Shown: in pieces, positions 17,049 to 53,388 of the stretch | How the letters are laid out: the number at the start of each line of letters is the position of its first letter | Position numbering within the stretch: the stretch's first letter is position 1 | DNA from: a virus | Lineage: Duplodnaviria > Caudoviricetes | Virus record (IMG/VR): IMGVR_UViG_3300030329_003629 | Span: 1-53,444 of that record | Length of the DNA: 53,444 bases | Reading direction: 5' to 3' (one strand) | Translations under genes and position numbers: made by a program | Notes under the pieces: generated by a model | Database searches by the model: none | Told to the model about the DNA's origin: nothing | Seen by the model: only the letters and a program-made list of their open reading frames with translations

Positions 17049-20000
17049 TTAACATGTTCCTGCTCCTACTACTATTCCATTTGTTCCTACCTCTACCCAA
17101 TTTTTAGTTGTTGCCGGCTGATTTGGATCTACAATATAGAATCCTGGTGGCATAAGTTGTCCTGGATCACATGTTGTATTTGCAAAACATATCTCCCCTA
17201 TCTCCGGGATAAGTCCCAGAACGGCAGACCCACTAAATGAACCTACTTGATTTCCTGGAGAATTTGTATCTGTATTACATACAAATGCCGCATTAGATTG
17301 AGCCGGTCCAAAATAAGTCGTAGCACATCCCGTGTTACAACCACAGCACGCATCTGTTGCACTTGTAGTTGAGAAGCATAATTGGCTACTTGTAATTTCT
17401 CTTAAATCCCAAACTAAATATAAATAATCATTAGCCTGTGGAAAAGCTCCTGCCGTAAGAGTGAATGTTGCTTGCTCCGACCCCGGTGCTCCCGAAATAG
17501 GTCCTAACACTTCTAAATCTGGATCCGCTAATAACAAATCCATATCTGCGGGTGTGTCTGCATACAAAGTATCACTTGATAAAAGTAAAAATCTATCGGA
17601 GAGAGGGTCAAATACAAAATCGTCAAACCCTTGTTTTAATGCTTTCATTGTAATAACAGTAGTAGGAGAAGCATAAGGAAACATCCCTACCGATCTTACT
17701 CCTGTTTGAGAAATATATTCCGAAGGAGTACTGGTTCCTAAAGAAGCCAAACTATTAAGTTGGGGAGATATAGTAGCTCCATCAGTCCACTCATATTCAA
17801 AATGAATAAATTCTCCAGCAGAACTTTGGGAGTTTAATACTATACGTATTATAGTTACAGAAAGAGTCGTTGGACATTGAACAGTTATATCATAAGTAGC
17901 AGGTCCGTTAGTAGGGACATCATCCGGAGTAATAGTGATAGTAAGATCGTTAGGAGTATTAGCTGTTTTATCGACAGTGGTTGAACCCGAAGCACTGACT
18001 CCTACTTCATTTACGGTAACGGCTCCCCACACTATCTCAATATCTACCACTCCTGTGGTTATAATATAATCTACCTCTATCTCTCCTACTGCATCTCCTA
18101 TATTAACCGTATAAGTTAATACATTACTGGTATTATTTTGACTCACCGTAGTACCACATGGTGTTCCTATTATAGGAAAAGGAATCTCATTAGTATTAGT
18201 GCTTAATACATATTCATTCATATAAGGGTCAAACCCTCCTAATTTTTGAGTTAATAACTGTTCGGCAAATTGATCTCTAAACCATGAACGCATGCCAAAC
18301 TGTGAGATTACTTGAATCTGATCATTGTTCCGAGAGGTACCTCTAAGGTTTATTACCGCCCCTCTCTTACTGTCCGTAAAAAACATATCAGATCCCCATG
18401 CCACAAAACTTTCAGGATTAAAACTAATTCCATACTCTTCGATTCTTGCAATTTGAGTACCTAACACTTCTGGTACCGACGCAATAGCCCCTCCTCCTGT
18501 GGAATCGGTAATAACATTTTTACTTGCTAATACATAAGATATTCTGTCTTCTTGTAAGCATAAGATATCTGTCTCTCGAGAATGTAAAATTTGAATAGGA
18601 CCAAAGGAAGGTTCGCAATCTTTATAATTTACCAATCCTAAATTAAACTCATTTAAATTATTAGAGTTGGCTGCTCCACTAAATACCCCGCTATAAGTCA
18701 TTCCTGCAAATCTATCTGCTTCTTTATAATCTTGATTAGATACAGCTAAAGTTCTTTGCCCTAAACTAAAATATTTAGTTCCAGGAGAATCACTAATTCT
18801 AAAACTTTCTACTCCATTTCCAAAAGTAAAACAATTAGCAAAATTTAAAGTAACTTTTAAATTATTAGTAGCATCTTGACTTACATCTCCTAAGGCTACA
18901 CCTGCCTCATGATATCTTACGCCATCTATAGGATCCGTATATATATTATACATTTGAGAAGCATCATAAAATAAATTTGGATCCACCTCATCGGGTTCTG
19001 TTTCCCAAATAATTAAAGCCCCTCCTCGTATAACCTCAATATGAGTTCCTACATGTCCTGGTCTTTTATCGTAAACTGGCCCACACCGTGGAATTCCACA
19101 TCTATTTCTAAATCTTATATCTCCCGTAGCAGGATCATCATTTCCATACACATACATTTTAGTTACAAAACACTGCTCTGACAACGAATCGGCCGTCGAA
19201 TAAGGATCCCCATTATTTAAATATTGTTTTGGGGTTATTCCATTTTTACTACCTGTAGTAAAATCTGCACCATCTCCATACCACCATTTTAAAAAATTAG
19301 GATAATCTTGACTGGCAGTGAAAGTTTCATCAAATCTGTAATGTTTTGTAGAACAACTATTTCCTTTACTTCCTCTCCAATTATCAATCTTAACTCTTAT
19401 ACTTGACCCCGCTGGTAAGTCATACGGATAGTCCGTACTATTAACATTTAAATAATAACTATTAGAAAGCCAACAATCTTTAGTATTAGATTTATCACTT
19501 TTATTCCCATAATTTATAATAGCATTCTCATCCAGCTCAGTATTAAAATCAGCAGGTTTAATACACATATATAATCCCGCTGGATTTATTCCTGTAAGGT
19601 CATCGTCATCTGTAGAGAATGCCCGCACATCTAATACTTTACATGTTACATTCGTACTCATAGGGCCATTAGTATCGGCTTTAACCCTTAAATTCATTCC
19701 TGTGGTAACAATATTGGTATTATCTCCTTCTAATTTAAACCAAAAAACTGAAGAGTCTGCAGCATCTTCATAGTATAATGCTGAAAACACGGTAAAATAA
19801 TTCCCTTCACTTGGTTTAACAACAAATTTATATTTAGTAGCCCAGTATGGAGGTAAGTTTTGTAATACAACTTGTATTTCGTTTTTATCTCTTGAATTTT
19901 CAGGCTTAATATATACAGTATTATTATTACTTACTAATACAGTAGATGCCCTTCCATAGTCATCCATATATACTATCCCTGTCTCATAATCTCTATTACT

Positions 20001-25884: not shown

Positions 25885-27309
25885 TTATGCATCTTGGAAT
25901 AAGAAGAAGTTGTTTGCACCTAAAGTACAACAAGCTCTTTCACTCAAGAAGTTAACCTGCATTGCATCTAAAGAAGATGTTCTTGCTCCACCAGCAGAAC
26001 CAGTGATCCAAGTTTTGTAACGTCTGTCTTCAGTCTCTGACGCTCTGTATCGAACGTGTAAGAATGGACGCTTTGCGTTTTTACCTAAGATTTGGTCATA
26101 TACAGATGTAGATCCCGCTGGAACTAAAAGTCCATTGATAGCTCCACCTACTATATCACCTCTCATTGTAGCATCGTTAAGATATTTCCAATCAGACTTG
26201 TAGAAGTCATAACCTCTACGGAATCCTGTGAATCCTAAGTTAAGTGCCATTTCTTCATCATTATCAAATAAACCATATGATGTACCACCCGCTCCATAAG
26301 AGTTTTGAGCCGCTAACATATCGTCAATATCAAATGAGAATTGTCTGTTACAGAAAATAACATTTTCCTCAATAGCACCTTGCTTGTCTAATCTTTGAAT
26401 AACTGAATCGAAACCAGCAAGAGTAGTTGGGTTACCACCTCCCCATACATTTCCTCTTGTACTTACTACGTAGAATACACCATCAGATCCACCCTGGCCA
26501 TCTGTACCACCGGCATTTCCAAAGTGTATTGCAGCACCCGATGCGTTTCCAGCTGGAACAGCTTCGATCATTGCAGTTTCTAAATAGTCTTCAAAACGAA
26601 GTCTTGTTTCGTGCTCAGACTTTAAATACCATAAGTATCCTGAACCACCATTCTCCGTAGAGATTTCAACCCAACCAATTTGAGCCATATCAGAACCACT
26701 TACCTCGTAAGTATCCTTAATGATAATTGGTTTGTTGTCAAAGAATACGTCATCTGCTTCTAAAGACTCCTCCATTCCTGAAGTTCCTTTTTTGAATTCA
26801 GATCCGTAAATCATTACTGTACACGCTACACCAGCAGCTACTCCTTGACCAGCTGTTTCATAATACGCTACATCAAAAGTTCCTGCAGTATAATTAACAT
26901 CTGTTACAACTGCTTTGTTACTTAAGGTAGAAGCTACAGTATTGTCAGAAATAAAAACTGTCTGACCTTTTCTGATTGCTATCTGACCTGTACCTGGTAC
27001 TAAAGCATCATTTACTGTCCACGTTGCAACATTTTGTGCTGCTGCTGCTGCTGATGTACAGTCAATATACTTAGTGTGTAACCTTCCTTGTTCAGCCCAT
27101 TTTATCATGTCTGAATTCGAAGGCATTTCAGCACCTACCATTCTTAAGAATGATGCTACTGTTCTATTACCATATCTCTCAAATTCTTTCTCATATGTAT
27201 CAGGAAGATACTGATTTAAGAAATCGAAACTGGTAATGTAGTTTGAAGGAAGGGCTACTCGTTCCGCACTTGGCTGAAGATCCCATCCTGGACTTACATT
27301 TACTCCCAT
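25885..27309 (-). CDS. major capsid protein
   Basis: 474 aa; follows portal and scaffold; WAEQGRLH, ALNLGFTGFRRG, PFLHVRYR, FLSER; codon usage typical of high expression; strong terminator downstream. Confidence 0.85.
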   Translation of the reverse strand: MGVNVSPGWDLQPSAERVALPSNYITSFDFLNQYLPDTYEKEFERYGNRTVASFLRMVGAEMPSNSDMIKWAEQGRLHTKYIDCTSAAAAAQNVATWTVNDALVPGTGQIAIRKGQTVFISDNTVASTLSNKAVVTDVNYTAGTFDVAYYETAGQGVAAGVACTVMIYGSEFKKGTSGMEESLEADDVFFDNKPIIIKDTYEVSGSDMAQIGWVEISTENGGSGYLWYLKSEHETRLRFEDYLETAMIEAVPAGNASGAAIHFGNAGGTDGQGGSDGVFYVVSTRGNVWGGGNPTTLAGFDSVIQRLDKQGAIEENVIFCNRQFSFDIDDMLAAQNSYGAGGTSYGLFDNDEEMALNLGFTGFRRGYDFYKSDWKYLNDATMRGDIVGGAINGLLVPAGSTSVYDQILGKNAKRPFLHVRYRASETEDRRYKTWITGSAGGARTSSLDAMQVNFLSERACCTLGANNFFLFQDA

Positions 27310-33803: not shown

Positions 33804-34376
33804 TTATTTATATTTATAAAACATTACAAAAACTTCTCTTCCTTCTTTCCAAGACTGGTTGGGATATTTGCTATGAAAATAATTAGCTGGATAAGAAATC
33901 AATCTATTCTGTTCATAACCAGCTACAGACACTAATCTCCACATATCTAAGTCTTCTGAATCTACCCGAATCATTTTATCATATTCCTCATCAGTTATGT
34001 GATCTGGTAAACTTTTACCATAAACCTCATGTTCCCAAAATGCAGTTCCATGTAGGTCTTCTCGTTCACGGGGAGACATATATAAAACAGCCGCCCTATC
34101 AGGTTGCTGACCATCTATTTTTAAATCTGAATGTATTCGCCACGTAGTATCTAACTCATCTGTAGAAACTCGAAAAAAACTTAAAATATTTTCTAAAGAT
34201 TTTCCCTCTATCATTCCTAATTTTCTTAAGACATAATCATTAAATGATTTGTTAGATTCTTGAATATAAAAATCTTTTCCTCCTACGTTGTGCTCAAGAA
34301 ACTTGCCTTTATTTAAATAGTCTTGTGCTATTTTAAATAGTTCTTTATCTATAAAATCATCTTCTATATATATCAT
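33804..34376 (-). CDS. 2OG-Fe(II) oxygenase superfamily protein
   Basis: IHSD...AVLYM...GTAFW...NRLISYPANYFHS...R: HxD...H triad. Confidence 0.8.
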   Translation of the reverse strand: MIYIEDDFIDKELFKIAQDYLNKGKFLEHNVGGKDFYIQESNKSFNDYVLRKLGMIEGKSLENILSFFRVSTDELDTTWRIHSDLKIDGQQPDRAAVLYMSPREREDLHGTAFWEHEVYGKSLPDHITDEEYDKMIRVDSEDLDMWRLVSVAGYEQNRLISYPANYFHSKYPNQSWKEGREVFVMFYKYK

Positions 34377-34936
34377 ACTATCATCGTTATATTATTAGTA
34401 AACATACGATACAACTTTTCATCATCCACTATAAACGGATATTCACTTCCCGGAGTATAAGATATAGAGTCTCCTTCTTTTACACCTAACGCTATTAGTT
34501 CTTCATTAATATATTTAATAGTACCAAACAAAGGTTCTTCATTAGTAGCTTTAAAAATATAAGATTCTTTTAAAGAAGCAGGTTTTATAAAACAATATTT
34601 TCCCCATGCATGCCACTTATCTTTTTTCTTATACATATAAAACTGCTCACTGTCTACTAAAAATAAATTTTCTTTTAAATGACTTCTTCCGCTTTTACGC
34701 CTTCCTTGCATGTCATTATAAAATTTAAAAACATTATGATGAACTAATAAAGTATCTCCTTTTTGGATAGGACCTGTATAATGAATAGGTGTTTCTACAA
34801 CACTTGCAAAACGATTAGATGCTGTATGATCTTCTTCAGATACACTGGTAATAAATTCAATATCACCAATTTGTTTAAGGTTATCATACCGCCTGTCTTT
34901 TACAGGAGTTACGATAAAAGAATAAGGAGATTTCAT
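34373..34936 (-). CDS. GroES-like protein (two tandem GroES-like folds)
   Basis: FIVTP...IQKGDTLLVHH and CFIKP...GVKEGDSISY...DDEKLYRM. Confidence 0.6.
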   Translation of the reverse strand: MKSPYSFIVTPVKDRRYDNLKQIGDIEFITSVSEEDHTASNRFASVVETPIHYTGPIQKGDTLLVHHNVFKFYNDMQGRRKSGRSHLKENLFLVDSEQFYMYKKKDKWHAWGKYCFIKPASLKESYIFKATNEEPLFGTIKYINEELIALGVKEGDSISYTPGSEYPFIVDDEKLYRMFTNNITMIV

Positions 34937-47338: not shown

Positions 47339-47809
47339 ATGCCAAATATAATAAGAAAGAACTACGATAGAGTTCAACCCTCTCATGACTATATGAAGTA
47401 TTGGAGGGTGATAAGGTACTGGGCTAAAGCCAAGTACAAGATCGGAACTCCCGATATAGATATGTTATTTTTCCTTTATAGCGAACAAATATTTAATAAA
47501 AGTAAATTTAAAGAGTTTGAAGAGTGCATGTCTTGGGATGAACCCAGATTTCATAGGCTCTTAAAAGAAGGATGGATACACATTTGGCGTAAACGTAAAG
47601 GTAATGAAACAACCTTATATGAACTATCTTATCAAGGTAAACGTCTGGTTAACACACTGTATAAGAAATTAAATGGAGAAGAGATAGGTGAAAGCCCTCA
47701 AGCTAATCCTTTATTTAGACACGATGCTTCTTATATGGATAAGGTTTATCGTAATATGATTATAGAAATGAATAAGTTTATAAAACAACAACGACATCTC
47801 TCTCAGTAA
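47339..47809 (+). CDS. winged-helix-like protein
   Basis: MLFFLY...RFHRLLKEGWI...LYELSYQGKRLV: MarR-like wing pattern. Confidence 0.6.
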   Translation: MPNIIRKNYDRVQPSHDYMKYWRVIRYWAKAKYKIGTPDIDMLFFLYSEQIFNKSKFKEFEECMSWDEPRFHRLLKEGWIHIWRKRKGNETTLYELSYQGKRLVNTLYKKLNGEEIGESPQANPLFRHDASYMDKVYRNMIIEMNKFIKQQRHLSQ

Positions 47810-48035
47810 TCACTGTATAAGGATTGTCTTCAATTAACATTTCATGACCTGCCGCTTTGTCATAATAAATAATATCTCCCTCGTTTATTACTGCCACATC
47901 TGTTCCTTGTTTAATTACCTCTCCTTTCATGTATCTAAAGTCAGAGGCGTCTTGAGCAGATAATAGCAGTCCTGATTTTGTTTTAAGCTCTTCGTTTATT
48001 TTTTTTATTACTATGTATTTCCCTATTGGTTTCAT
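47778..48035 (-). CDS. groES: co-chaperonin GroES
   Basis: MKPIGKYIVI...KTKSGLLL...GEVI..G...EGDIIYY...VITERDVVVVL. Confidence 0.9.
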   Translation of the reverse strand: MKPIGKYIVIKKINEELKTKSGLLLSAQDASDFRYMKGEVIKQGTDVAVINEGDIIYYDKAAGHEMLIEDNPYTVITERDVVVVL

Positions 48036-48107
48036 ATTGTTTTAAATTTGATTCTATTTTATTCTCTTCTGATCGAAATACCCATTTTAATAACCTTCTT
48101 AACATTC

Positions 48108-49757
48108 CTAATCTCTTTTGTGAGTTACAATAGCATTAGTAGTAAGAATAGTCGTGGCTACACTAATAGCATTTAATAAAGCATTCTTTGTTACTTTCAC
48201 TGGATCTACAATTCCTAACTTAAACATATCTCCATACTCTCTATTAAAGACATCATATCCTTTATTATTAAAAGGAGGGTGAGGAGCATTCTCACTATCT
48301 CCCATCATTTCTTTGGTATATATTTTCCCCATAATTTCATCTGGGTCTAATCCAGCATTTTTTAATATCTGCTCTAAAGGAGCTCGTAAGGCTTCACGTA
48401 ATATCATCTCCGAAGCTTGATCTTCACCAATTATTTCATCAGTTGCATCTTCACAAGAACATCCAAAATGACGGTGGGTATCATATAAAAATAATCCTCC
48501 TCCTGCAATTATCCCTTCCTGCAGGGCGGAACGCACTGCACAGACCGAGTCATCGACTCGGTCAAATTTTTCTTTTTGCTCTATATCAGAATTAGCACCT
48601 ACATAGATACATGCAATCCCTCCAACTAAACTCGCTATTCTTTCGTTAATAAAGTCTTTCTCATGTTTAGCTGTTAACTGTTCTTGTTGTTCTCTAAGTT
48701 CCTCTACTCTTTTAGTAGTCTCTTTTGTTATCTCTCCATTTTTAATTAAGATAGTAGAATTTTTTCCTACAATAATTTTATCTGCATGACCTAAGTCTTG
48801 CATGTTTATAATAGATAAATCATCTCCTGTCTTTTCAGAAAAATATTTAGCTCCGGTTGCAAAAGCAATATCCTGCATAAGCTCATGTGTTTTATATCCA
48901 AATGATGGAGGAGCAATATTACATAGCTTTAAACCATTACGAGCCACATTCGCTGCTAATGTGTTTATAACATTTACCGAGCATTCTCCAATAATTAAAA
49001 GTTTTTCTCCTGAATTTATAATTGGTTTAAGAACATTCTCAATTTGAAGAATATTATTAATCTCAGTGTCACATATTAAAACTTTAACATTCTCTAATAT
49101 ACACTCGTCTTTTCTTTGATCATTCACAAACATAGGAGATGACCAACCTCTATCTATCTTTATTCCATTAGTTACATCACAATATGTTTTATCTGTCTGA
49201 GATCTTTCTACTGTTACAATCCCATCCTTTCCTACTTTCCTATATGCCTCAGCTACTATCTCACCAATCTCTTTCTCATTGTTAGCAGAAATAGAAGCAA
49301 TATCATCTAACATATCATCCGTTACCTGTACTGCATTTTTATTAAGGTTTTTTACAATCATCTCTACATCATACTTAACTCCCCAAATAACATCCCATAT
49401 ATTATGCTGAGGTTGAATCCATTTTATTCCTGCTTGAATTAATGCTTCTGTTAAAACAATAGCGGTTGTTGTACCATCGCCAGCGACATTCGCTGTTTTC
49501 TCCGAAGCTTGCTTTACCATTTTTACCGCGAGGTTCTCAACCGGATCCTCTAAATCGATAGACTTAGCTACGGTTACCCCGTCCTTAGTTACTGTTAATC
49601 CTTGCGTATGATTATTAGATTCAATAATTACTGTTTTACCGCTTGGACCTAATGTGCTTTTTACTGCTTGTGAAATTTTAGAGATTCCTGATATAAGTTT
49701 ATCTCTTCCCTCTTGATCAAAAGAGAGGTCTTTTGGAGTGTACCCTGGGTTCTGCAT
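48108..49757 (-). CDS. groEL: phage-encoded chaperonin GroEL
   Basis: VKSTLGPSG, TKDGVTVAK, AGDGTTTA, EGIIAGGG, GIVDPVKVT. Confidence 0.97.
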   Translation of the reverse strand: MQNPGYTPKDLSFDQEGRDKLISGISKISQAVKSTLGPSGKTVIIESNNHTQGLTVTKDGVTVAKSIDLEDPVENLAVKMVKQASEKTANVAGDGTTTAIVLTEALIQAGIKWIQPQHNIWDVIWGVKYDVEMIVKNLNKNAVQVTDDMLDDIASISANNEKEIGEIVAEAYRKVGKDGIVTVERSQTDKTYCDVTNGIKIDRGWSSPMFVNDQRKDECILENVKVLICDTEINNILQIENVLKPIINSGEKLLIIGECSVNVINTLAANVARNGLKLCNIAPPSFGYKTHELMQDIAFATGAKYFSEKTGDDLSIINMQDLGHADKIIVGKNSTILIKNGEITKETTKRVEELREQQEQLTAKHEKDFINERIASLVGGIACIYVGANSDIEQKEKFDRVDDSVCAVRSALQEGIIAGGGLFLYDTHRHFGCSCEDATDEIIGEDQASEMILREALRAPLEQILKNAGLDPDEIMGKIYTKEMMGDSENAPHPPFNNKGYDVFNREYGDMFKLGIVDPVKVTKNALLNAISVATTILTTNAIVTHKRD

Positions 49758-50445: not shown

Positions 50446-50953
50446 TAAAATTTTTTTAGATGTCTGGGGGTTGAGGGTTATTATAGGATATACGAAGGCA
50501 CCTCGCCTTAGGAAATGAAAAAAAAATTGCACCCCCCCCTAACCGATTTGGAAATTTCCACCCGAACTTTTTGAGGTTTTTTTGGGGGACTACGTAACCC
50601 CACCTACCCACCTAACTATACTTGCTCTTAGTTGCTTGTTCGTTCTCCTTTGCTACTCTTAATGTCTACGAGTTAACGCATACCTTCCCTCATTTAGCAG
50701 AGGAAGAGAGAAGATACCTTCCCTTAATCACTTTGTTAAGACAAAGAGAGAGTAAGGTTAACCACCCCACCATCCCCAAAATACATAAACAAAACAACAA
50801 AATTATCAACACCTTAAACGATTGATAATCAATATACTTACAAGAGAGAATTATATGTGACAAGAAAATAATTGCAATTAACCATTGTCAATCCAAATTA
50901 AATCACGATATTTGCACTACAATTAAACAATTAGTAATCAAAAACACACAATT

Positions 50954-51163
50954 ATGAACAAGCAAAAAATCATTAAGAACATCATTGAGTTAAACAATGA
51001 GAGAGGTAATCTAAGAGAGAAATTAATGCTACCTAAAGATAAGGCACACTTAAAGCATTTATTAGAACGTATTGATAGTGTTACTGCTGAGATGTCAATG
51101 GAGATTGTATACTTGGAGAACGCAGTAAATAAAGAACAAGCGTTACTCAATATGCAAGATTAA
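50954..51163 (+). CDS. early hypothetical protein (coiled coil)
   Basis: Preceded by AAACACACAATT-ATG. Confidence 0.7.
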   Translation: MNKQKIIKNIIELNNERGNLREKLMLPKDKAHLKHLLERIDSVTAEMSMEIVYLENAVNKEQALLNMQD

Positions 51164-51172
51164 ACCTTAACC

Positions 51173-51239
51173 ACCACCGAATGGCTCGTACTGAATTAAG
51201 TACGGGCTTTTCGTGGTAGGGGACAATAGTGTTTCCTAC
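51173..51239 (+). ncRNA. intergenic structured RNA (long hairpin plus second hairpin), copy 1
   Basis: ACCACCGAATGGCTCGTACT-GAATTA-AGTACGGGCTTTTCGTGGT, then GTAGGGGACA-ATAG-TGTTTCCTAC. Confidence 0.7.
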
Positions 51240-51256
51240 AATTTAAACACACAATT

Positions 51257-51766
51257 ATGAACACACAAGAATTAACAATGAGATTAGATATGCTCATTCC
51301 AACGCAATGGTTATCTAACACTTTTACTGATGGATTATGGGATAGAGATGCTCACAAAGAGATACTATCAAAGGTAGTAGAATTGAATCCTAAATGGGTA
51401 GAGCGAGTAGTGAATTCAACAACAGGATTACATACTGATGGAGAGTTAAAGTTATCTGATGTACTACATGACTTTAAAGGTATCTACTCTGAAGATGAGC
51501 ATTTCCTACCGAGAATATCTACTGAAGTTACTGATGATGAGGTGTATGGATACACTAACATACAAACCTACCGATTATGTTTAGTATTAGACAATGAGCC
51601 GACTGAATGCTCTTATAATCCTTTAGAGAGATTCTTTGAGTTAGTATCTGATGAAGAATTTGAGATTACTGATATTAATCTTATCAATTGGAATGAGGTA
51701 ATTGAGAGATACTCGGAGAGATTAGTAGAGGGATATGAGTATAAACACCAAGTACAATTAGTATAA
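51257..51766 (+). CDS. early acidic hypothetical protein
   Basis: 169 aa; same leader motif. Confidence 0.75.
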   Translation: MNTQELTMRLDMLIPTQWLSNTFTDGLWDRDAHKEILSKVVELNPKWVERVVNSTTGLHTDGELKLSDVLHDFKGIYSEDEHFLPRISTEVTDDEVYGYTNIQTYRLCLVLDNEPTECSYNPLERFFELVSDEEFEITDINLINWNEVIERYSERLVEGYEYKHQVQLV

Positions 51767-51767
51767 A

Positions 51768-51825
51768 AATACTCTGATGAGTCTGCTGAAATGCAACGAA
51801 ACACCTCGCAAGAGGTGTCAGTATT
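51768..51825 (+). ncRNA. type I hammerhead ribozyme 1 (cleavage after C51819)
   Basis: Stem I AATACT/AGTATT; core CTGATGA; stem II GT(C)TGC-TGAAAT-GCAAC; GAAA; stem III CACCTC-GCAA-GAGGTG; GTC cleavage triplet. Confidence 0.93.
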
Positions 51826-51844
51826 AATTAAAAAACACACACAA

Positions 51845-52270
51845 ATGGGATACAATACCGATTGGAATGGAGGACTAACACTTAGTAGAGAGTTGACTCC
51901 AAAAGAGCAAAAAGAATGGAATGCTATTATAGAAAATAGACATGATAGTGAGTATTTTGAGGGAGATGAACGTAGAGAGTTTCCGAGTATATGGTGCGAC
52001 TTTGAGATTGATGGTAAAGAGTTTAGATGGAATGGTAATGAGAAGACTTATGAGGGCATCGGCTGGATTAAATTCTTCCTGAATAAGCTAAAAGAATGGA
52101 ATAAGACAGAAAAAATCTATGCAGAGGGAGAATTAGAATGGCGAGGAGATGATGGAGATGAAGATATGGGAAGAGTAGTAGTAATAGGAATGGAAGTAGG
52201 AGGAAAACACACCATCCACATTGATAATGTAGTATTTGACTACGAAAGAGATAAAACATACTACATATAG
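51845..52270 (+). CDS. conserved early phage protein of unknown function (141 aa), flanked by ribozymes
   Basis: Probable start MGYNTDW after AAAAACACACACAA; PSIWCDF...WNGNEKTY...W...GELEWRG. Confidence 0.8.
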   Translation: MGYNTDWNGGLTLSRELTPKEQKEWNAIIENRHDSEYFEGDERREFPSIWCDFEIDGKEFRWNGNEKTYEGIGWIKFFLNKLKEWNKTEKIYAEGELEWRGDDGDEDMGRVVVIGMEVGGKHTIHIDNVVFDYERDKTYYI

Positions 52271-52321
52271 ATACTCTGATGAGGACTCAATGTCCGAAAC
52301 TACCGAAAGGTAGTCAGTATC
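52270..52321 (+). ncRNA. type I hammerhead ribozyme 2 (cleavage after C52315)
   Basis: Stem I GATACT/AGTATC; core CTGATGA; stem II GGAC-TCAAT-GTCC; GAAA; stem III CTACC-GAAA-GGTAG; GTC cleavage triplet. Confidence 0.96.
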
Positions 52322-52348
52322 ATAAGATACCAATTAAAAACACACACA

Positions 52349-52573
52349 ATGTATAAAACAATGGTTAAAGAAGCCCAAGAATTTTGGGGACAAGTAGCAT
52401 CCGAAAATGGATGGAGTATGAATGGTAGAGGATGTACAATATGGATAAACAAAGACAATGAAGTATTAGATAGTATCTACAATAAAGAAGATAATAAAGA
52501 ATCTTATATCGTAGAAGTAGAGATAGATAATGATGGATACTATGAGAATGAGATATTAATTAAAACAATATAG
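52349..52573 (+). CDS. early hypothetical protein
   Basis: Preceded by AAAAACACACA-ATG. Confidence 0.7.
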   Translation: MYKTMVKEAQEFWGQVASENGWSMNGRGCTIWINKDNEVLDSIYNKEDNKESYIVEVEIDNDGYYENEILIKTI

Positions 52574-52575
52574 AT

Positions 52576-52947
52576 ATGAAAAACAAATATGCACGAAAAT
52601 GTGATTACACAGGTAAAGGAATGAATACAGGATATGTATTTATTGATGACTCCTGTATGATAGATGATAGAGAATTATTTATCAAAGAATTAAGAAAAGA
52701 TAGAGAGGGTATTATTAACTTGATACCAAAAGATATCAAAGATATTCATGGCTTTGATAATTCTTGTTATCTAACTGAAAAAGAGATAGAGGAGTTGTCA
52801 AATAAAGTAGCAAATGCACTTAATAATAATGAAACTGATGAAGAGTTATGCGATATAGCATATGCAGTAGATTATTATTATTGGACACAATGGGAAGATG
52901 AATATGAGTATGAGGAAATTAATGGAGTATTAACTGAAATAGAATAG
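52576..52947 (+). CDS. early hypothetical protein
   Basis: ARKCDYTGKGMNTGY...YYWTQWE. Confidence 0.75.
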   Translation: MKNKYARKCDYTGKGMNTGYVFIDDSCMIDDRELFIKELRKDREGIINLIPKDIKDIHGFDNSCYLTEKEIEELSNKVANALNNNETDEELCDIAYAVDYYYWTQWEDEYEYEEINGVLTEIE

Positions 52948-52949
52948 AT

Positions 52950-53150
52950 ATGAAAATAAGAGATTATATAGCAGAGTTAATTATGATAACGTTATTCGCA
53001 ATTGTTATGTCCTCTTGCGGAATAACAAACAAATTAACTGATGAACAACTACACCACCGATCCCGAATTGAGTATGAAATGAATAAATTATGGAACGAAT
53101 ACCAAATAAAGAACGACTCTTTACTAATGGAATATTATAAAATTAAATAG
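52950..53150 (+). CDS. putative lipoprotein
   Basis: Basic N-terminus, hydrophobic core and lipobox-like MSS|C. Confidence 0.65.
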   Translation: MKIRDYIAELIMITLFAIVMSSCGITNKLTDEQLHHRSRIEYEMNKLWNEYQIKNDSLLMEYYKIK

Positions 53151-53187
53151 ATAAAGAAATTATTAATCAATTAAAAAACATATAGAT

Positions 53188-53388
53188 ATGATAGATTTAA
53201 AAAAAGAGCAATGTTATAATTGTGATGAGATGTATGAATGGAAAGAAGTACCAAGTGGATGGGATGAGGAGTATTGTACTGAATGTAATGAAAGATTAAA
53301 CCCATACTTATGTAATAACTGCAATGAAGAGGTAGATGAGCCGGATACCTTTTGTAGTAAATGGTGCAGTCAAGAGTATTGGTTATGA
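53188..53388 (+). CDS. small Zn-finger protein
   Basis: CYNC, CTEC, CNNC and CSKWC motifs. Confidence 0.7.
   Translation: MIDLKKEQCYNCDEMYEWKEVPSGWDEEYCTECNERLNPYLCNNCNEEVDEPDTFCSKWCSQEYWL

What the first reader, a model, noticed from the sequence alone, without database searches (positions are those of the whole stretch)
51768..52321. Tandem hammerhead ribozymes excise one early gene as a 496-nt RNA that could circularise
Seen: two sense-strand type I hammerheads flank only the 141-aa ORF 51845-52270. Cleavage after C51819 and C52315 would release 51820-52315 (496 nt). Their stems I are nearly identical (AATACT/AGTATT and GATACT/AGTATC) while stems II and III differ completely. The fragment's 5' end AGUAUU can therefore pair with GAUACU near its own 3' end (one G-U pair) and rebuild a complete hammerhead across the junction. 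Established: hammerhead cleavage leaves 5'-OH and 2',3'-cyclic phosphate ends, which can be joined by the reverse reaction or an RtcB-type ligase; retrozymes and viroid-like RNAs form circles this way. Inference: this DNA phage may make a circular, or at least end-protected, single-gene mRNA. I cannot tell from the sequence whether this arrangement has been described before.
Basis: partly seen in the sequence, partly recalled or inferred. Interest (0 to 1): 0.95.

Follow-up and report, generated by a model that had tools for sequence, protein, structure and literature searches.

The report
Two hammerhead ribozymes bracket a phage gene
Two genuine self-cutting hammerhead RNAs sit on either side of one small gene in a marine phage and most likely trim a long transcript into a single-gene message, an arrangement already described for phages in 2011; an RNA circle is possible but nothing here shows it.

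Summary
Two canonical type I hammerheads lie on the + strand (51768-51825, cut after C51819; 52270-52321, cut after C52315). They bracket only the 141-aa ORF 51845-52270 and would release a 496-nt RNA.

They belong to a family found in marine Flavobacteriia-type podophages. I aligned 35 distinct copies: 96% of cells pair, and 14 of 17 pairs show changes on both sides.

The layout is regular: stop codon, hammerhead, 21-33-nt A-rich leader, ATG.

Best reading: self-cleavage cuts an early polycistronic transcript into single-gene linear mRNAs.

This arrangement, and the idea of circular or spliced products, is already in print. Perreault et al. 2011 looked for such products and did not detect them.

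The near-identical stems I are real and turn out to be general. In an unbiased sample, 16 of 26 adjacent phage hammerhead pairs have cross-compatible stems I, against about 3% of random pairs. DNA recombination inside the ribozymes explains this equally well or better: two close relatives carry one hammerhead where this phage has the 502-bp hammerhead-plus-gene unit.

No RNA data exist for this phage. The fragment is not rod-like (z = -0.47), and the phage encodes no RtcB or Rnl2-type ligase. The circle model is untested; I put it at about 0.12.

The parts
51257..51766 (+). Upstream early ORF (169 aa, no family). Its TAA stop (51764-51766) ends 7 nt before the HH1 core.
   Evidence: homologues lie upstream of hammerheads in L010/L025/L008
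51768..51825 (+). Hammerhead 1 (type I). Stem I 51768-73/51820-25, core 51774-80, stem II 51781-97, GAA 51798-800, stem III 51801-18. Predicted cut between C51819 and A51820.
   Evidence: 63.0 bits; RF03152 28.4 bits, below cut-off; covariation in the family
51820..51844 (+). 25-nt A-rich leader that would carry the 5'-OH end of the excised mRNA.
   Evidence: the leader is 21-33 nt in 31 of 33 family members with a downstream ORF
51845..52270 (+). 141-aa ORF of unknown function (phrog_38666, no Pfam). Its TAG stop overlaps the first base of HH2 stem I.
52270..52321 (+). Hammerhead 2 (type I). Stem I 52270-75/52316-21, core 52276-82, stem II 52283-95, GAA 52296-98, stem III 52299-314. Predicted cut between C52315 and A52316.
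   Evidence: 69.0 bits; the MFE is the canonical three-way fold, z = -3.08; a 100% identical 50-nt copy sits in L020 with other flanks
51820..52315 (+). Predicted 496-nt excised RNA: leader + ORF + nearly complete HH2 as a structured 3' end.
52317..52330 (+). Hairpin GUAUC-AUAA-GAUAC at the 5' end of the downstream cleavage product. It is an alternative partner for the 3' strand of HH2 stem I.
   Evidence: -3.9 kcal/mol, 98% of the ensemble; present after 8 of 8 GAUACU-class hammerheads; identical sequence each time, so no covariation
52349..52573 (+). Downstream early ORF (74 aa). It starts 33 nt after the HH2 cut.
   Evidence: its homologue follows the single hammerhead in L010/L025
51768..52269 (+). 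502-bp unit (HH1 + leader + ORF141) that is absent from close relatives L025 and L010, which carry one hammerhead here.
   Evidence: a metagenome contig joint 51796->52295 in run X5

Best explanation

As the polycistronic transcript is made, each ribozyme folds in the roughly 80-110-nt spacer between two genes and cuts itself. The upstream message is left ending in its stop codon plus a compact ribozyme with a 2',3'-cyclic phosphate. The downstream message starts with a 5'-OH and a 21-33-nt unstructured A-rich leader directly in front of its ATG.

Here that releases the 141-aa gene as a linear 496-nt monocistronic mRNA with unusual, probably decay-resistant, ends.

Shown: the motifs, their conservation and covariation, the regular stop-ribozyme-leader-ATG layout, and the gene-unit indel.

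Inferred: cleavage in vivo, co-transcription, and the effects on stability and translation.

The near identity of stems I is best read as a consequence of recombination (my odds about 0.55). In a type I hammerhead, stem I is made of the two outer strands. Any DNA crossover inside the ribozyme separates them but leaves hairpins II and III intact. Recombinant ribozymes therefore work only if the hammerheads of a gene pool share one stem I.
For: Canonical cores and three helices at the stated coordinates.

Family of 35 distinct copies: 96.1% of cells paired against 67.3% in shuffles; 14 of 17 pairs changed on both sides; covariation 0.706 against 0.137, with 0 of 500 shuffles reaching it; slid controls 25-48% paired.

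Model R1 finds only these two sites in the window. It finds 11 strong hits, all in the small-gene cluster, in 5 of 5 whole records of relatives chosen by protein homology.

Layout: the upstream stop ends 2-15 nt before the core in 33 of 35 copies. The ATG lies 21-33 nt after the cut in 31 of the 33 copies with a downstream ORF.

Phage identity: portal, large terminase and virion proteins on the - strand. The large terminase is nearest to Flavobacterium (45%) and Cellulophaga (37%) phages.

Precedent: Perreault et al. 2011 showed that three tandem prophage hammerhead sets all cleave in vitro and one cleaves in E. coli. They proposed processing into single-gene mRNAs.

Recombination:
- L025 and L010 (86-93% identical) have one hammerhead where the window has HH1-ORF-HH2.
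- The same stem III occurs with four different stems II.
- Metagenome contigs join or diverge at the ribozyme borders.
- Stem I is shared across six phage genomes (11 of 13 hammerheads), including genomes with a single hammerhead.
Against: No RNA evidence of any kind: no listed run is RNA, so cleavage in vivo, the transcript's extent and the 'early' timing are all inferred.

HH1's minimum-free-energy fold is not the hammerhead fold for stems I and II, and its stem II needs a bulge.

Rfam's curated models do not accept either motif at gathering score.

The homologues of the 141-aa gene are flanked by two hammerheads in only 2 of 6 relatives, so the ribozymes are not tied to this gene.

Gene indels in this region also occur without hammerheads. 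The 123-aa gene 52576-52947 is absent from L025, and there is a joint 52581->53204. Ribozymes are therefore not the only recombination joints.

The recombination reading of stem I and the RNA-level reading predict the same pattern and are not mutually exclusive.
Confidence: 0.7

Rival explanations
1. Circular mRNA. After both cuts, the 5' AGUAUU of the 496-nt fragment pairs with GAUACU near its 3' end and rebuilds a hammerhead across the junction. The ends are then joined by the reverse reaction or by a host RtcB-type ligase, giving a translatable, exonuclease-proof circle.
For: The hybrid stem I has 6 contiguous pairs.

In a nearest-neighbour ensemble of the fragment each hybrid pair has probability 0.07-0.10, and enforcing the hybrid costs only +1.0 kcal/mol.

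The conserved hairpin after HH2 would pull away the competing 3' strand.

Cross-compatibility is general: 16 of 26 adjacent phage hammerhead pairs reach >=5 bp, against 3.2% of random pairs. Within arrays, stem I is fully identical in 12 of 25 pairs, against 5 of 25 for stem II and 3 of 25 for stem III.

From memory, not checked here: hammerhead ligation and RtcB joining of such ends are established, and circular mRNAs can be translated in E. coli.
Against: Perreault et al. 2011 looked for circular or spliced products of tandem prophage hammerheads and detected neither (data not shown).

The fragment is not rod-like (z = -0.47, 35 of 100 shuffles fold as well).

No RtcB or Rnl2-family gene is found in the 88%-complete phage.

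Compatibility is not universal: 6 of 15 adjacent pairs in the related set and 10 of 26 in the generic set fall below 5 bp.

Circle-direction and splice-direction hybrids are equally good overall, so nothing points specifically to circles.

Relatives G002 (100% complete) and G003 (98%) carry a single hammerhead with the same stem I and the same downstream hairpin. No circle is possible there.
Confidence: 0.12
2. The hammerheads are mainly selfish or structural recombination modules that mark cassette borders. Their RNA cleavage is incidental or neutral for gene expression.
For: The HH-plus-gene unit is present or absent between near-identical relatives.

The flanked genes differ between phages.

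Stem II and stem III modules occur in mosaic combinations.

Joints and loose ends fall at ribozyme borders in other metagenomes.
Against: Every catalytic-core position is kept in all 35 copies, with compensatory changes in all three stems. That implies selection on the folded RNA, not only on a DNA repeat.

The strict spacing to stop and start codons points to an RNA-level role.

Only 13 + 8 nt are shared between HH1 and HH2, which is short for efficient homologous recombination.
Confidence: 0.1
3. One or both ribozymes are inactive or conditionally active, for example held off by alternative pairings or by ribosomes terminating on stem I. In that case the 496-nt RNA is a minor or regulated product.
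For: HH1's MFE uses an alternative hairpin within stem I/core.

Upstream AGUAU (51761-65) can pair with the 5' strand of HH1 stem I (-1.6 kcal/mol).

The upstream stop codon lies within or next to stem I in 33 of 35 copies, so a terminating ribosome would cover stem I.
Against: The upstream alternative hairpin is no better than shuffles (z = -0.88).

The cores are canonical and conserved.

All tandem prophage hammerheads tested by Perreault et al. cleaved efficiently.
Confidence: 0.08

Closest known systems
Clustered hammerhead ribozymes flanking genes in prophages (Perreault et al. 2011, PLoS Comput Biol 7:e1002031; PMC3088659; passages read, supplements not seen)
   Same: Several hammerheads on one strand flank single genes or short gene blocks of phage origin. 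The identity of the flanked genes is not constant. The proposed role is cutting long phage transcripts into single-gene mRNAs. Circular or spliced products were explicitly considered.
   Different: Their tested examples are prophages of Clostridium, Azorhizobium and Agrobacterium. This one is an uncultured lytic-type marine podophage of the Flavobacterium/Cellulophaga phage neighbourhood. The main text does not contain the words recombination or duplication, and its uses of 'identical' concern other matters. I found no mention of stem I shared within a cluster in the passages read.
Rfam RF03152 RAGATH-1 hammerhead, RF00008 Hammerhead_3 and the other Rfam hammerhead models
   Same: Same catalytic core and three-way junction. 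HH1 aligns over the full RF03152 model, and a relative's copy reaches 34.9 bits.
   Different: All scores are far below gathering (28.4 and 34.9 against 56.3). HH2 gives no hit. This phage subfamily is effectively not covered by the curated models.
Retrozymes and viroid-like hammerhead circRNAs (de la Pena et al., PMC5680766 and PMC7229834 from search listings; passages of PMC7761336 read)
   Same: Two same-sense hammerheads a few hundred nt apart. The excised RNA carries 5'-OH and 2',3'-cyclic phosphate ends that could be rejoined across a rebuilt ribozyme.
   Different: Those circles are non-coding, highly base-paired RNAs of eukaryotic retroelements or replicating agents. This fragment is a protein-coding phage mRNA with no excess structure. 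There is no sign of retroelement features, and no circle has been observed.
Self-cleaving ribozymes in 5' UTRs of RNA viruses that enable translation initiation (PMC13725137; abstract and passages read)
   Same: A type I hammerhead with a long helix III sits just upstream of an ORF, and cleavage creates the translated RNA's 5' end.
   Different: That mechanism concerns cap-independent translation in eukaryotic hosts of RNA viruses. Here the host is bacterial and the genome is DNA.
Repeated early-region boundary elements that shuffle gene cassettes in T4-type phages
   Same: Short conserved elements between small early genes mark the borders of gene units that are gained and lost between related phages.
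   Different: Those are promoter and hairpin repeats, not ribozymes. The analogy is a lead, not a test.

Membership tests
Hammerhead ribozyme, type I | Conserved core: C3 U4 G5 A6 N7 G8 A9, G12 A13 A14, A15.1-U16.1, H17 (not G) at the cleavage site | tested here: met
   Both copies have CUGAUGA, GAA, an A-U closing pair and C17. These columns are invariant in 35 of 35 aligned family members, except N7 (U in at least 90%).
Hammerhead ribozyme, type I | Three helices around the core, supported by covariation; stems II and III closed by loops and stem I open | tested here: met
   96.1% of cells paired. 6 of 6, 3 of 4 and 5 of 7 pairs in stems I, II and III show changes on both sides. Shuffled and slid controls are far lower. 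Caveat: the scanner that collected the copies required a minimum pairing of >=4, >=2 and >=5 bp.
Hammerhead ribozyme, type I | Self-cleavage 3' of H17, giving 2',3'-cyclic phosphate and 5'-OH ends | not testable with these tools
   No RNA run holds the phage. This needs in vitro transcription.
Hammerhead ribozyme, type I | [quoted passage not shown] | tested here: inconclusive
   Stem I is 5-6 bp followed by an A-A mismatch in 29 of 35 copies. Loop II falls into recurrent types (UUAAU/UCAAU, UGAAAU/UGAGAUU). I found no covarying partner.
Rfam curated hammerhead families (RF03152, RF00008 and the rest) | Score at or above the family's gathering cut-off | tested here: not met
   0 hits at gathering on the window. 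HH1 scores 28.4 against 56.3 and 24.1 against 48.5. HH2 gives none at E<=10.
Clustered phage/prophage hammerheads (Perreault 2011) | Two or more hammerheads, same strand, flanking single genes or short blocks in phage DNA, with variable flanked genes | tested here: met
   Window: 2 hammerheads 502 nt apart around one ORF. Relatives carry 1-4 per genome, always in the small-gene cluster. The flanked genes differ.
Retrozyme / viroid-like hammerhead circRNA | The excised RNA is non-coding and folds into a stable rod-like or branched structure | tested here: not met
   The fragment is 86% ORF. MFE is -84.4 against a shuffle mean of -82.0, z = -0.47.
Retrozyme / viroid-like hammerhead circRNA | Covalently closed circles detectable (junction reads, RNase R resistance) | not testable with these tools
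   No RNA holder is listed. Only DNA contigs were laid.
Retrozyme / viroid-like hammerhead circRNA | The ends can rebuild a complete ribozyme across the junction | tested here: met
   6-bp hybrid stem I. Ensemble probability is about 0.1, and enforcing the hybrid costs +1.0 kcal/mol.

The most novel reading that the evidence does not exclude
Phage hammerhead arrays use one shared stem I as a universal adaptor, so that any two ribozymes of a gene pool can be rejoined. At the DNA level this swaps ribozyme-bounded gene cassettes. At the RNA level it closes the excised single-gene transcript into a translatable circular mRNA, or splices a cassette out. If so, a DNA phage would make ribozyme-born circular mRNAs. 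The stated probability is for the RNA-level circle being a real in vivo product of this locus. The DNA-level adaptor idea alone I put at about 0.55.
Probability: 0.12. Interest if true: 0.85.

Novelty: new member of a known kind. Interest (0 to 1): 0.5.

Why it matters
What hammerheads do in phages and bacteria has been an open question since they were found there in 2011.

This locus is a clean, minimal case: two ribozymes, one gene, 496 nt. It belongs to a family with an unusually regular stop-ribozyme-leader-ATG layout in phages of Flavobacteriia. From memory, not tested here: these hosts start translation on unstructured A-rich leaders rather than Shine-Dalgarno sites.

That makes a concrete, testable proposal. 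The ribozymes would set the exact 5' edge of each ribosome-binding region and cap each message with a structured 3' end.

The comparative work also produced a rule I did not find in print: stem I is shared within phage hammerhead arrays while stems II and III are free. The searches were made, plus the main text of PMC3088659; the supplements were not seen.

Whether that rule reflects DNA cassette exchange or RNA rejoining can be decided with simple experiments. If circles were found, it would be the first natural ribozyme-made circular mRNA of a DNA phage.

Tried and rejected
RNA evidence: the look-up of sequencing runs listed 22 runs and no RNA holder. This says nothing about expression. Read laying could therefore only lay DNA contigs. 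It cannot test cleavage or circles, and parts without cover are not evidence.

Rfam: the whole window at gathering and at E<=0.1 gave nothing. Six relatives' loci gave one sub-threshold RF03152 hit and no other ribozyme class. The structured-looking spacer upstream of the homologue in L004 matched no family.

Function of the 141-aa ORF: no Pfam family, only phrog_38666 'unknown', no tblastn match in deposited phages, and atlas neighbours are unnamed viral clusters.

Idea rejected: that AUACU/AGUAU is required by the ribozyme's tertiary structure. Other phage arrays use quite different stems I (GUCUAA, GGUUAA, GAUUAA, GUAACA and more), and exceptions within this family covary.

Idea rejected: that end compatibility is specific to short single-gene fragments. 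In the related set, 7 of 8 fragments under 900 nt have a hybrid of >=5 bp, against 2 of 7 longer ones. In the generic sample it is 12 of 20 against 4 of 6, so there is no association.

Idea rejected: a directional preference for circle over splice hybrids. There is none.

Weak model hits rejected: window 27205-27247 (14.5 bits, no core); Tenacibaculum phage Gundel_1 (19.2 bits, stem I and core only); 22-nt half-hammerhead words inside a coding region of G002/G003.

Promoters: the sigma-70-type scan found fewer sites than shuffles (14 against a mean of 20.1). A recalled Bacteroidota-type pattern gave 3 matches against 3.3 expected, none in the region. The transcript start is unknown.

Supplementary files of papers were not opened. 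Figures S1-S3 and Dataset S1 of PMC3088659 may show whether their clusters share stem I and how circles were sought.

Bias to keep in mind: the 25 loci were fetched with a pattern that requires AUACU/AGUAU. Stem I frequencies from the 35-copy alignment are therefore biased. The unbiased figures are 11 of 13 and the generic sample.
Full report
**Observation**

The window is a whole 53,444-bp IMG/VR virus contig (linear, CheckV 88%).

- HH1 has stem I AAUACU/AGUAUU (51768-73 / 51820-25), core CUGAUGA (51774-80) and a 5-bp stem II with one bulged C and a UGAAAU loop. Then come GAA, a 7-bp stem III with a GCAA loop, and C17 at 51819.
- HH2 has stem I GAUACU/AGUAUC (52270-75 / 52316-21), core 52276-82, a 4-bp stem II, a 6-bp stem III with a GAAA loop, and C17 at 52315.
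- Cutting at both sites releases 51820-52315, which is 496 nt. It contains only the 141-aa ORF 51845-52270.
- The descriptor finds these two sites and nothing else on either strand. The mean in 100 dinucleotide shuffles is 0.1 (largest 2).
- A contig from a different sample and study spans 51240-52680 without a single difference (X2 record 3).
- Rfam misses them. There are no hits at gathering score and none at E<=0.1 on the whole window. In a 1.1-kb search, HH1 reaches 28.4 bits on RF03152 (cut-off 56.3) and HH2 gives nothing.

**Are they real ribozymes?**

- Homologues of the 141-aa protein occur on six viral contigs. A pattern scan for the shared stem I plus core found 25 more stretches.
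- These gave 35 distinct hammerheads, which align cleanly (A1).
- On the hammerhead structure, 96.1% of cells pair (shuffles 67.3%). 14 of 17 pairs have changes on both sides. The covariation score is 0.706 against 0.137, with 0 of 500 shuffles as high. Sliding the partners drops pairing to 25-48%.
- My collecting scanner required minimal stems, so the innermost pairs are partly paired by construction.
- A covariance model from this alignment (R1) scores HH2 at 69.0 and HH1 at 63.0 bits. The next window hit is 14.5 bits and lacks the core.
- HH2's MFE is the canonical three-way junction (z = -3.08). HH1's MFE keeps stem III but uses an alternative hairpin for stem I and the core.

**Context**

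- The - strand from 3.6 to 47 kb carries portal, large terminase and virion proteins, plus GroEL/GroES-like genes.
- The large terminase is nearest to an uncultured podovirus (74%), then to Flavobacterium elemo phages (45%) and Cellulophaga phages (37%).
- The ribozymes lie in a + strand run of small unknown ORFs (50954-53388). This run continues at the contig start into a helicase. 'Early' is an inference from this layout.
- Across the family the arrangement is strikingly regular. The upstream ORF's stop codon ends 2-15 nt before the core in 33 of 35 copies. The most common offset is -5 (15 of 35), which places the stop inside the outer end of stem I.
- The next ATG lies 21-33 nt after the cut in 31 of 33 copies, after an A-rich leader.
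- The ribozyme therefore fills the whole spacer. It becomes the 3' end of one message and defines the 5' edge of the next ribosome-binding region.

**Relatives**

- Model R1 on the whole records of five relatives chosen by protein homology finds 4, 1, 1, 1 and 4 strong hits. All are in the same small-gene cluster.
- The 141-aa gene's homologue is flanked by two hammerheads in 2 of 6 loci (L003, L008). In the other four it has no ribozyme next to it. The ribozymes are therefore not tied to this gene.
- Among five deposited relatives, only Flavobacterium phage vB_FspP_elemoB_14-3B has a clear copy (48.8 bits). It sits between two small hypothetical genes.
- Two contigs that are 86-93% identical to the window in this region (L025, L010) have a single hammerhead between the homologues of the 169-aa and 74-aa genes.
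- Their left flank matches the window's HH1 flank. Their ribozyme and right flank match HH2. The window thus carries an extra 502-bp unit, HH1 plus leader plus ORF, with the joint inside the shared stem I/core.
- A contig in another metagenome joins 51796 to 52295. Many contigs of related phages start or stop matching exactly at the ribozyme borders.
- Against over-reading this: L025 also lacks the 123-aa gene 52576-52947, with no ribozyme at its borders. Joints without ribozymes also occur.

**The stem I clue**

- In the set that is unbiased for stem I, 11 of 13 hammerheads from six phage genomes have the 5' strand (N)AUACU. The two exceptions covary.
This gave 91 type I hammerheads in 65 loci and 26 adjacent same-strand pairs.
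- The upstream ribozyme's 3' strand pairs with the downstream ribozyme's 5' strand over >=5 bp in 16 of 26 pairs. For random pairs from different loci the figure is 3.2%.
- After removing one duplicate, stem I is fully identical in 12 of 25 adjacent pairs, against stem II in 5 of 25 and stem III in 3 of 25. The background rates are 1.5%, 6.5% and 1.5%.
- Different arrays use quite different stems I. The sequence is therefore not dictated by the ribozyme fold. It is homogenised within an array.

**Two readings of the stem I pattern**

(a) RNA level: ends from different ribozymes must be able to pair, giving circles or splicing.

(b) DNA level: stem I of a type I hammerhead is formed by its two outer strands. 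Any crossover within the ribozyme separates them, while hairpins II and III travel intact. Recombinants therefore function only if the ribozymes of a gene pool share stem I.

- Reading (b) has direct support: mosaic combinations of stem II and stem III modules, the cassette indel and the metagenome joints.
- Reading (b) also explains why genomes with a single hammerhead keep the same stem I and the same downstream hairpin (G002 100% and G003 98% complete).
- Reading (a) has no direct support. Compatibility is absent in 6 of 15 and 10 of 26 adjacent pairs. It is not linked to fragment length in the generic sample (12 of 20 under 900 nt against 4 of 6 longer). Circle-direction and splice-direction hybrids are equally good.

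**Feasibility of the circle**

- The hybrid stem I is 6 bp.
- In the fragment's ensemble each hybrid pair has probability 0.07-0.10, and enforcing the hybrid costs +1.0 kcal/mol. The ends can meet.
- The fragment as a whole is no more structured than shuffles (z = -0.47), unlike viroid-like or retrozyme circles.
- The phage has no RtcB or Rnl2-family gene. A host ligase cannot be excluded.
- After HH2, the downstream product's 5' end folds into a small hairpin (-3.9 kcal/mol, 98% of the ensemble). This hairpin follows 8 of 8 GAUACU-class copies. It would make cleavage irreversible and shield the 5' end. It would also free HH2's 5' strand, so it fits both models.
- No RNA run holds this phage, so the decisive test could not be made.

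**What is known**

- Perreault et al. [quoted passage not shown] The flanked genes vary.
- Three tandem sets cleaved at all sites in vitro, and one cleaved in E. coli. They suggest that long phage transcripts may be processed into single-gene mRNAs.
- They state that spliced or circular products are conceivable but that neither was detected (data not shown).
- Their main text has no occurrence of 'recombination' or 'duplication'.
- Four full-text searches found no paper on circles from phage hammerheads, on shared stem I in arrays, or on hammerheads in Flavobacterium or Cellulophaga phages. Supplements were not seen.
- Retrozymes and viroid-like RNAs (passages of PMC7761336) share the two-ribozyme geometry, but they are non-coding, structured and eukaryotic.
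- A 2026 paper shows that type I hammerheads upstream of ORFs drive translation in RNA viruses of fungi and plants (PMC13725137). This is a functional parallel, not the same system.

**Verdict**

The feature is real, well conserved and correctly described. It is a new member of a known kind: clustered phage hammerheads that punctuate a polycistronic transcript.

My odds:
- about 0.9 that both cleave in vitro;
- about 0.7 for the full best explanation (linear single-gene mRNA as the main product);
- about 0.12 for a real circular product.

The added value of this look is threefold: the regular stop-ribozyme-leader-ATG architecture, the ribozyme-bounded cassette indel, and the general rule that stem I is shared within arrays. 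The last gives two sharply testable explanations.

Noticed in passing
window 50456-50800: An ORF-poor stretch with runs of G and C (unusual in a 35% GC phage) lies between the leftward and rightward gene clusters. It could be a non-coding RNA, an origin or a regulatory region. Rfam found nothing there.
   Followed up: no
window 51181-51256: A terminator-like hairpin with a T run (about 51185-51213) is followed by a ~50-nt element. That element is 85-88% conserved in relatives and present twice in L010. A similar word stands upstream of the homologue in L004. It is a candidate terminator/early-promoter unit that may start the transcript carrying both ribozymes.
   Followed up: partly
window 50931-50953, 51240-51256, 51826-51844, 52331-52348: The same A/C-rich leader word (AAACACACACAA-like) precedes four successive small ORFs, with or without a ribozyme. 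Metagenome joints also fall in these leaders. It may be a translation signal typical of Bacteroidota phages and a second kind of recombination joint.
   Followed up: partly
window 47778-49757 and 34373-34933: The phage encodes a full-length GroEL-like chaperonin (549 aa) with an adjacent GroES-like gene (85 aa). A second protein matches a phage co-chaperonin family (phrog_13932) inside the structural module.
   Followed up: no
L041 1501-1522 (G003) and the matching place in G002: A half hammerhead (stem I 5' strand plus CUGAUGAG) lies inside a coding region about 420 nt downstream of the single hammerhead, in two related phages. It could be chance, a protein motif, or the scar of a lost ribozyme.
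   Followed up: partly
L008 3413-3472: In this relative the homologue of the 141-aa ORF reads into the downstream hammerhead, and its stop codon lies in the loop of stem II. Coding sequence and ribozyme can overlap.
   Followed up: no
L056 1237-1533 (MT497068.1 16936-17232): The annotated start of CDS elemo143B_phanotate44 overlaps the 3' part of the hammerhead at 17211-17272. The true start is probably further downstream, after the cut.
   Followed up: no
L059, L113, L134, L149 (viral contigs): Other, unrelated phage contigs carry arrays of three to five type I hammerheads spaced 180-900 nt apart. Each array has its own shared stem I. These look richer than the window for testing the array rule.
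   Followed up: partly
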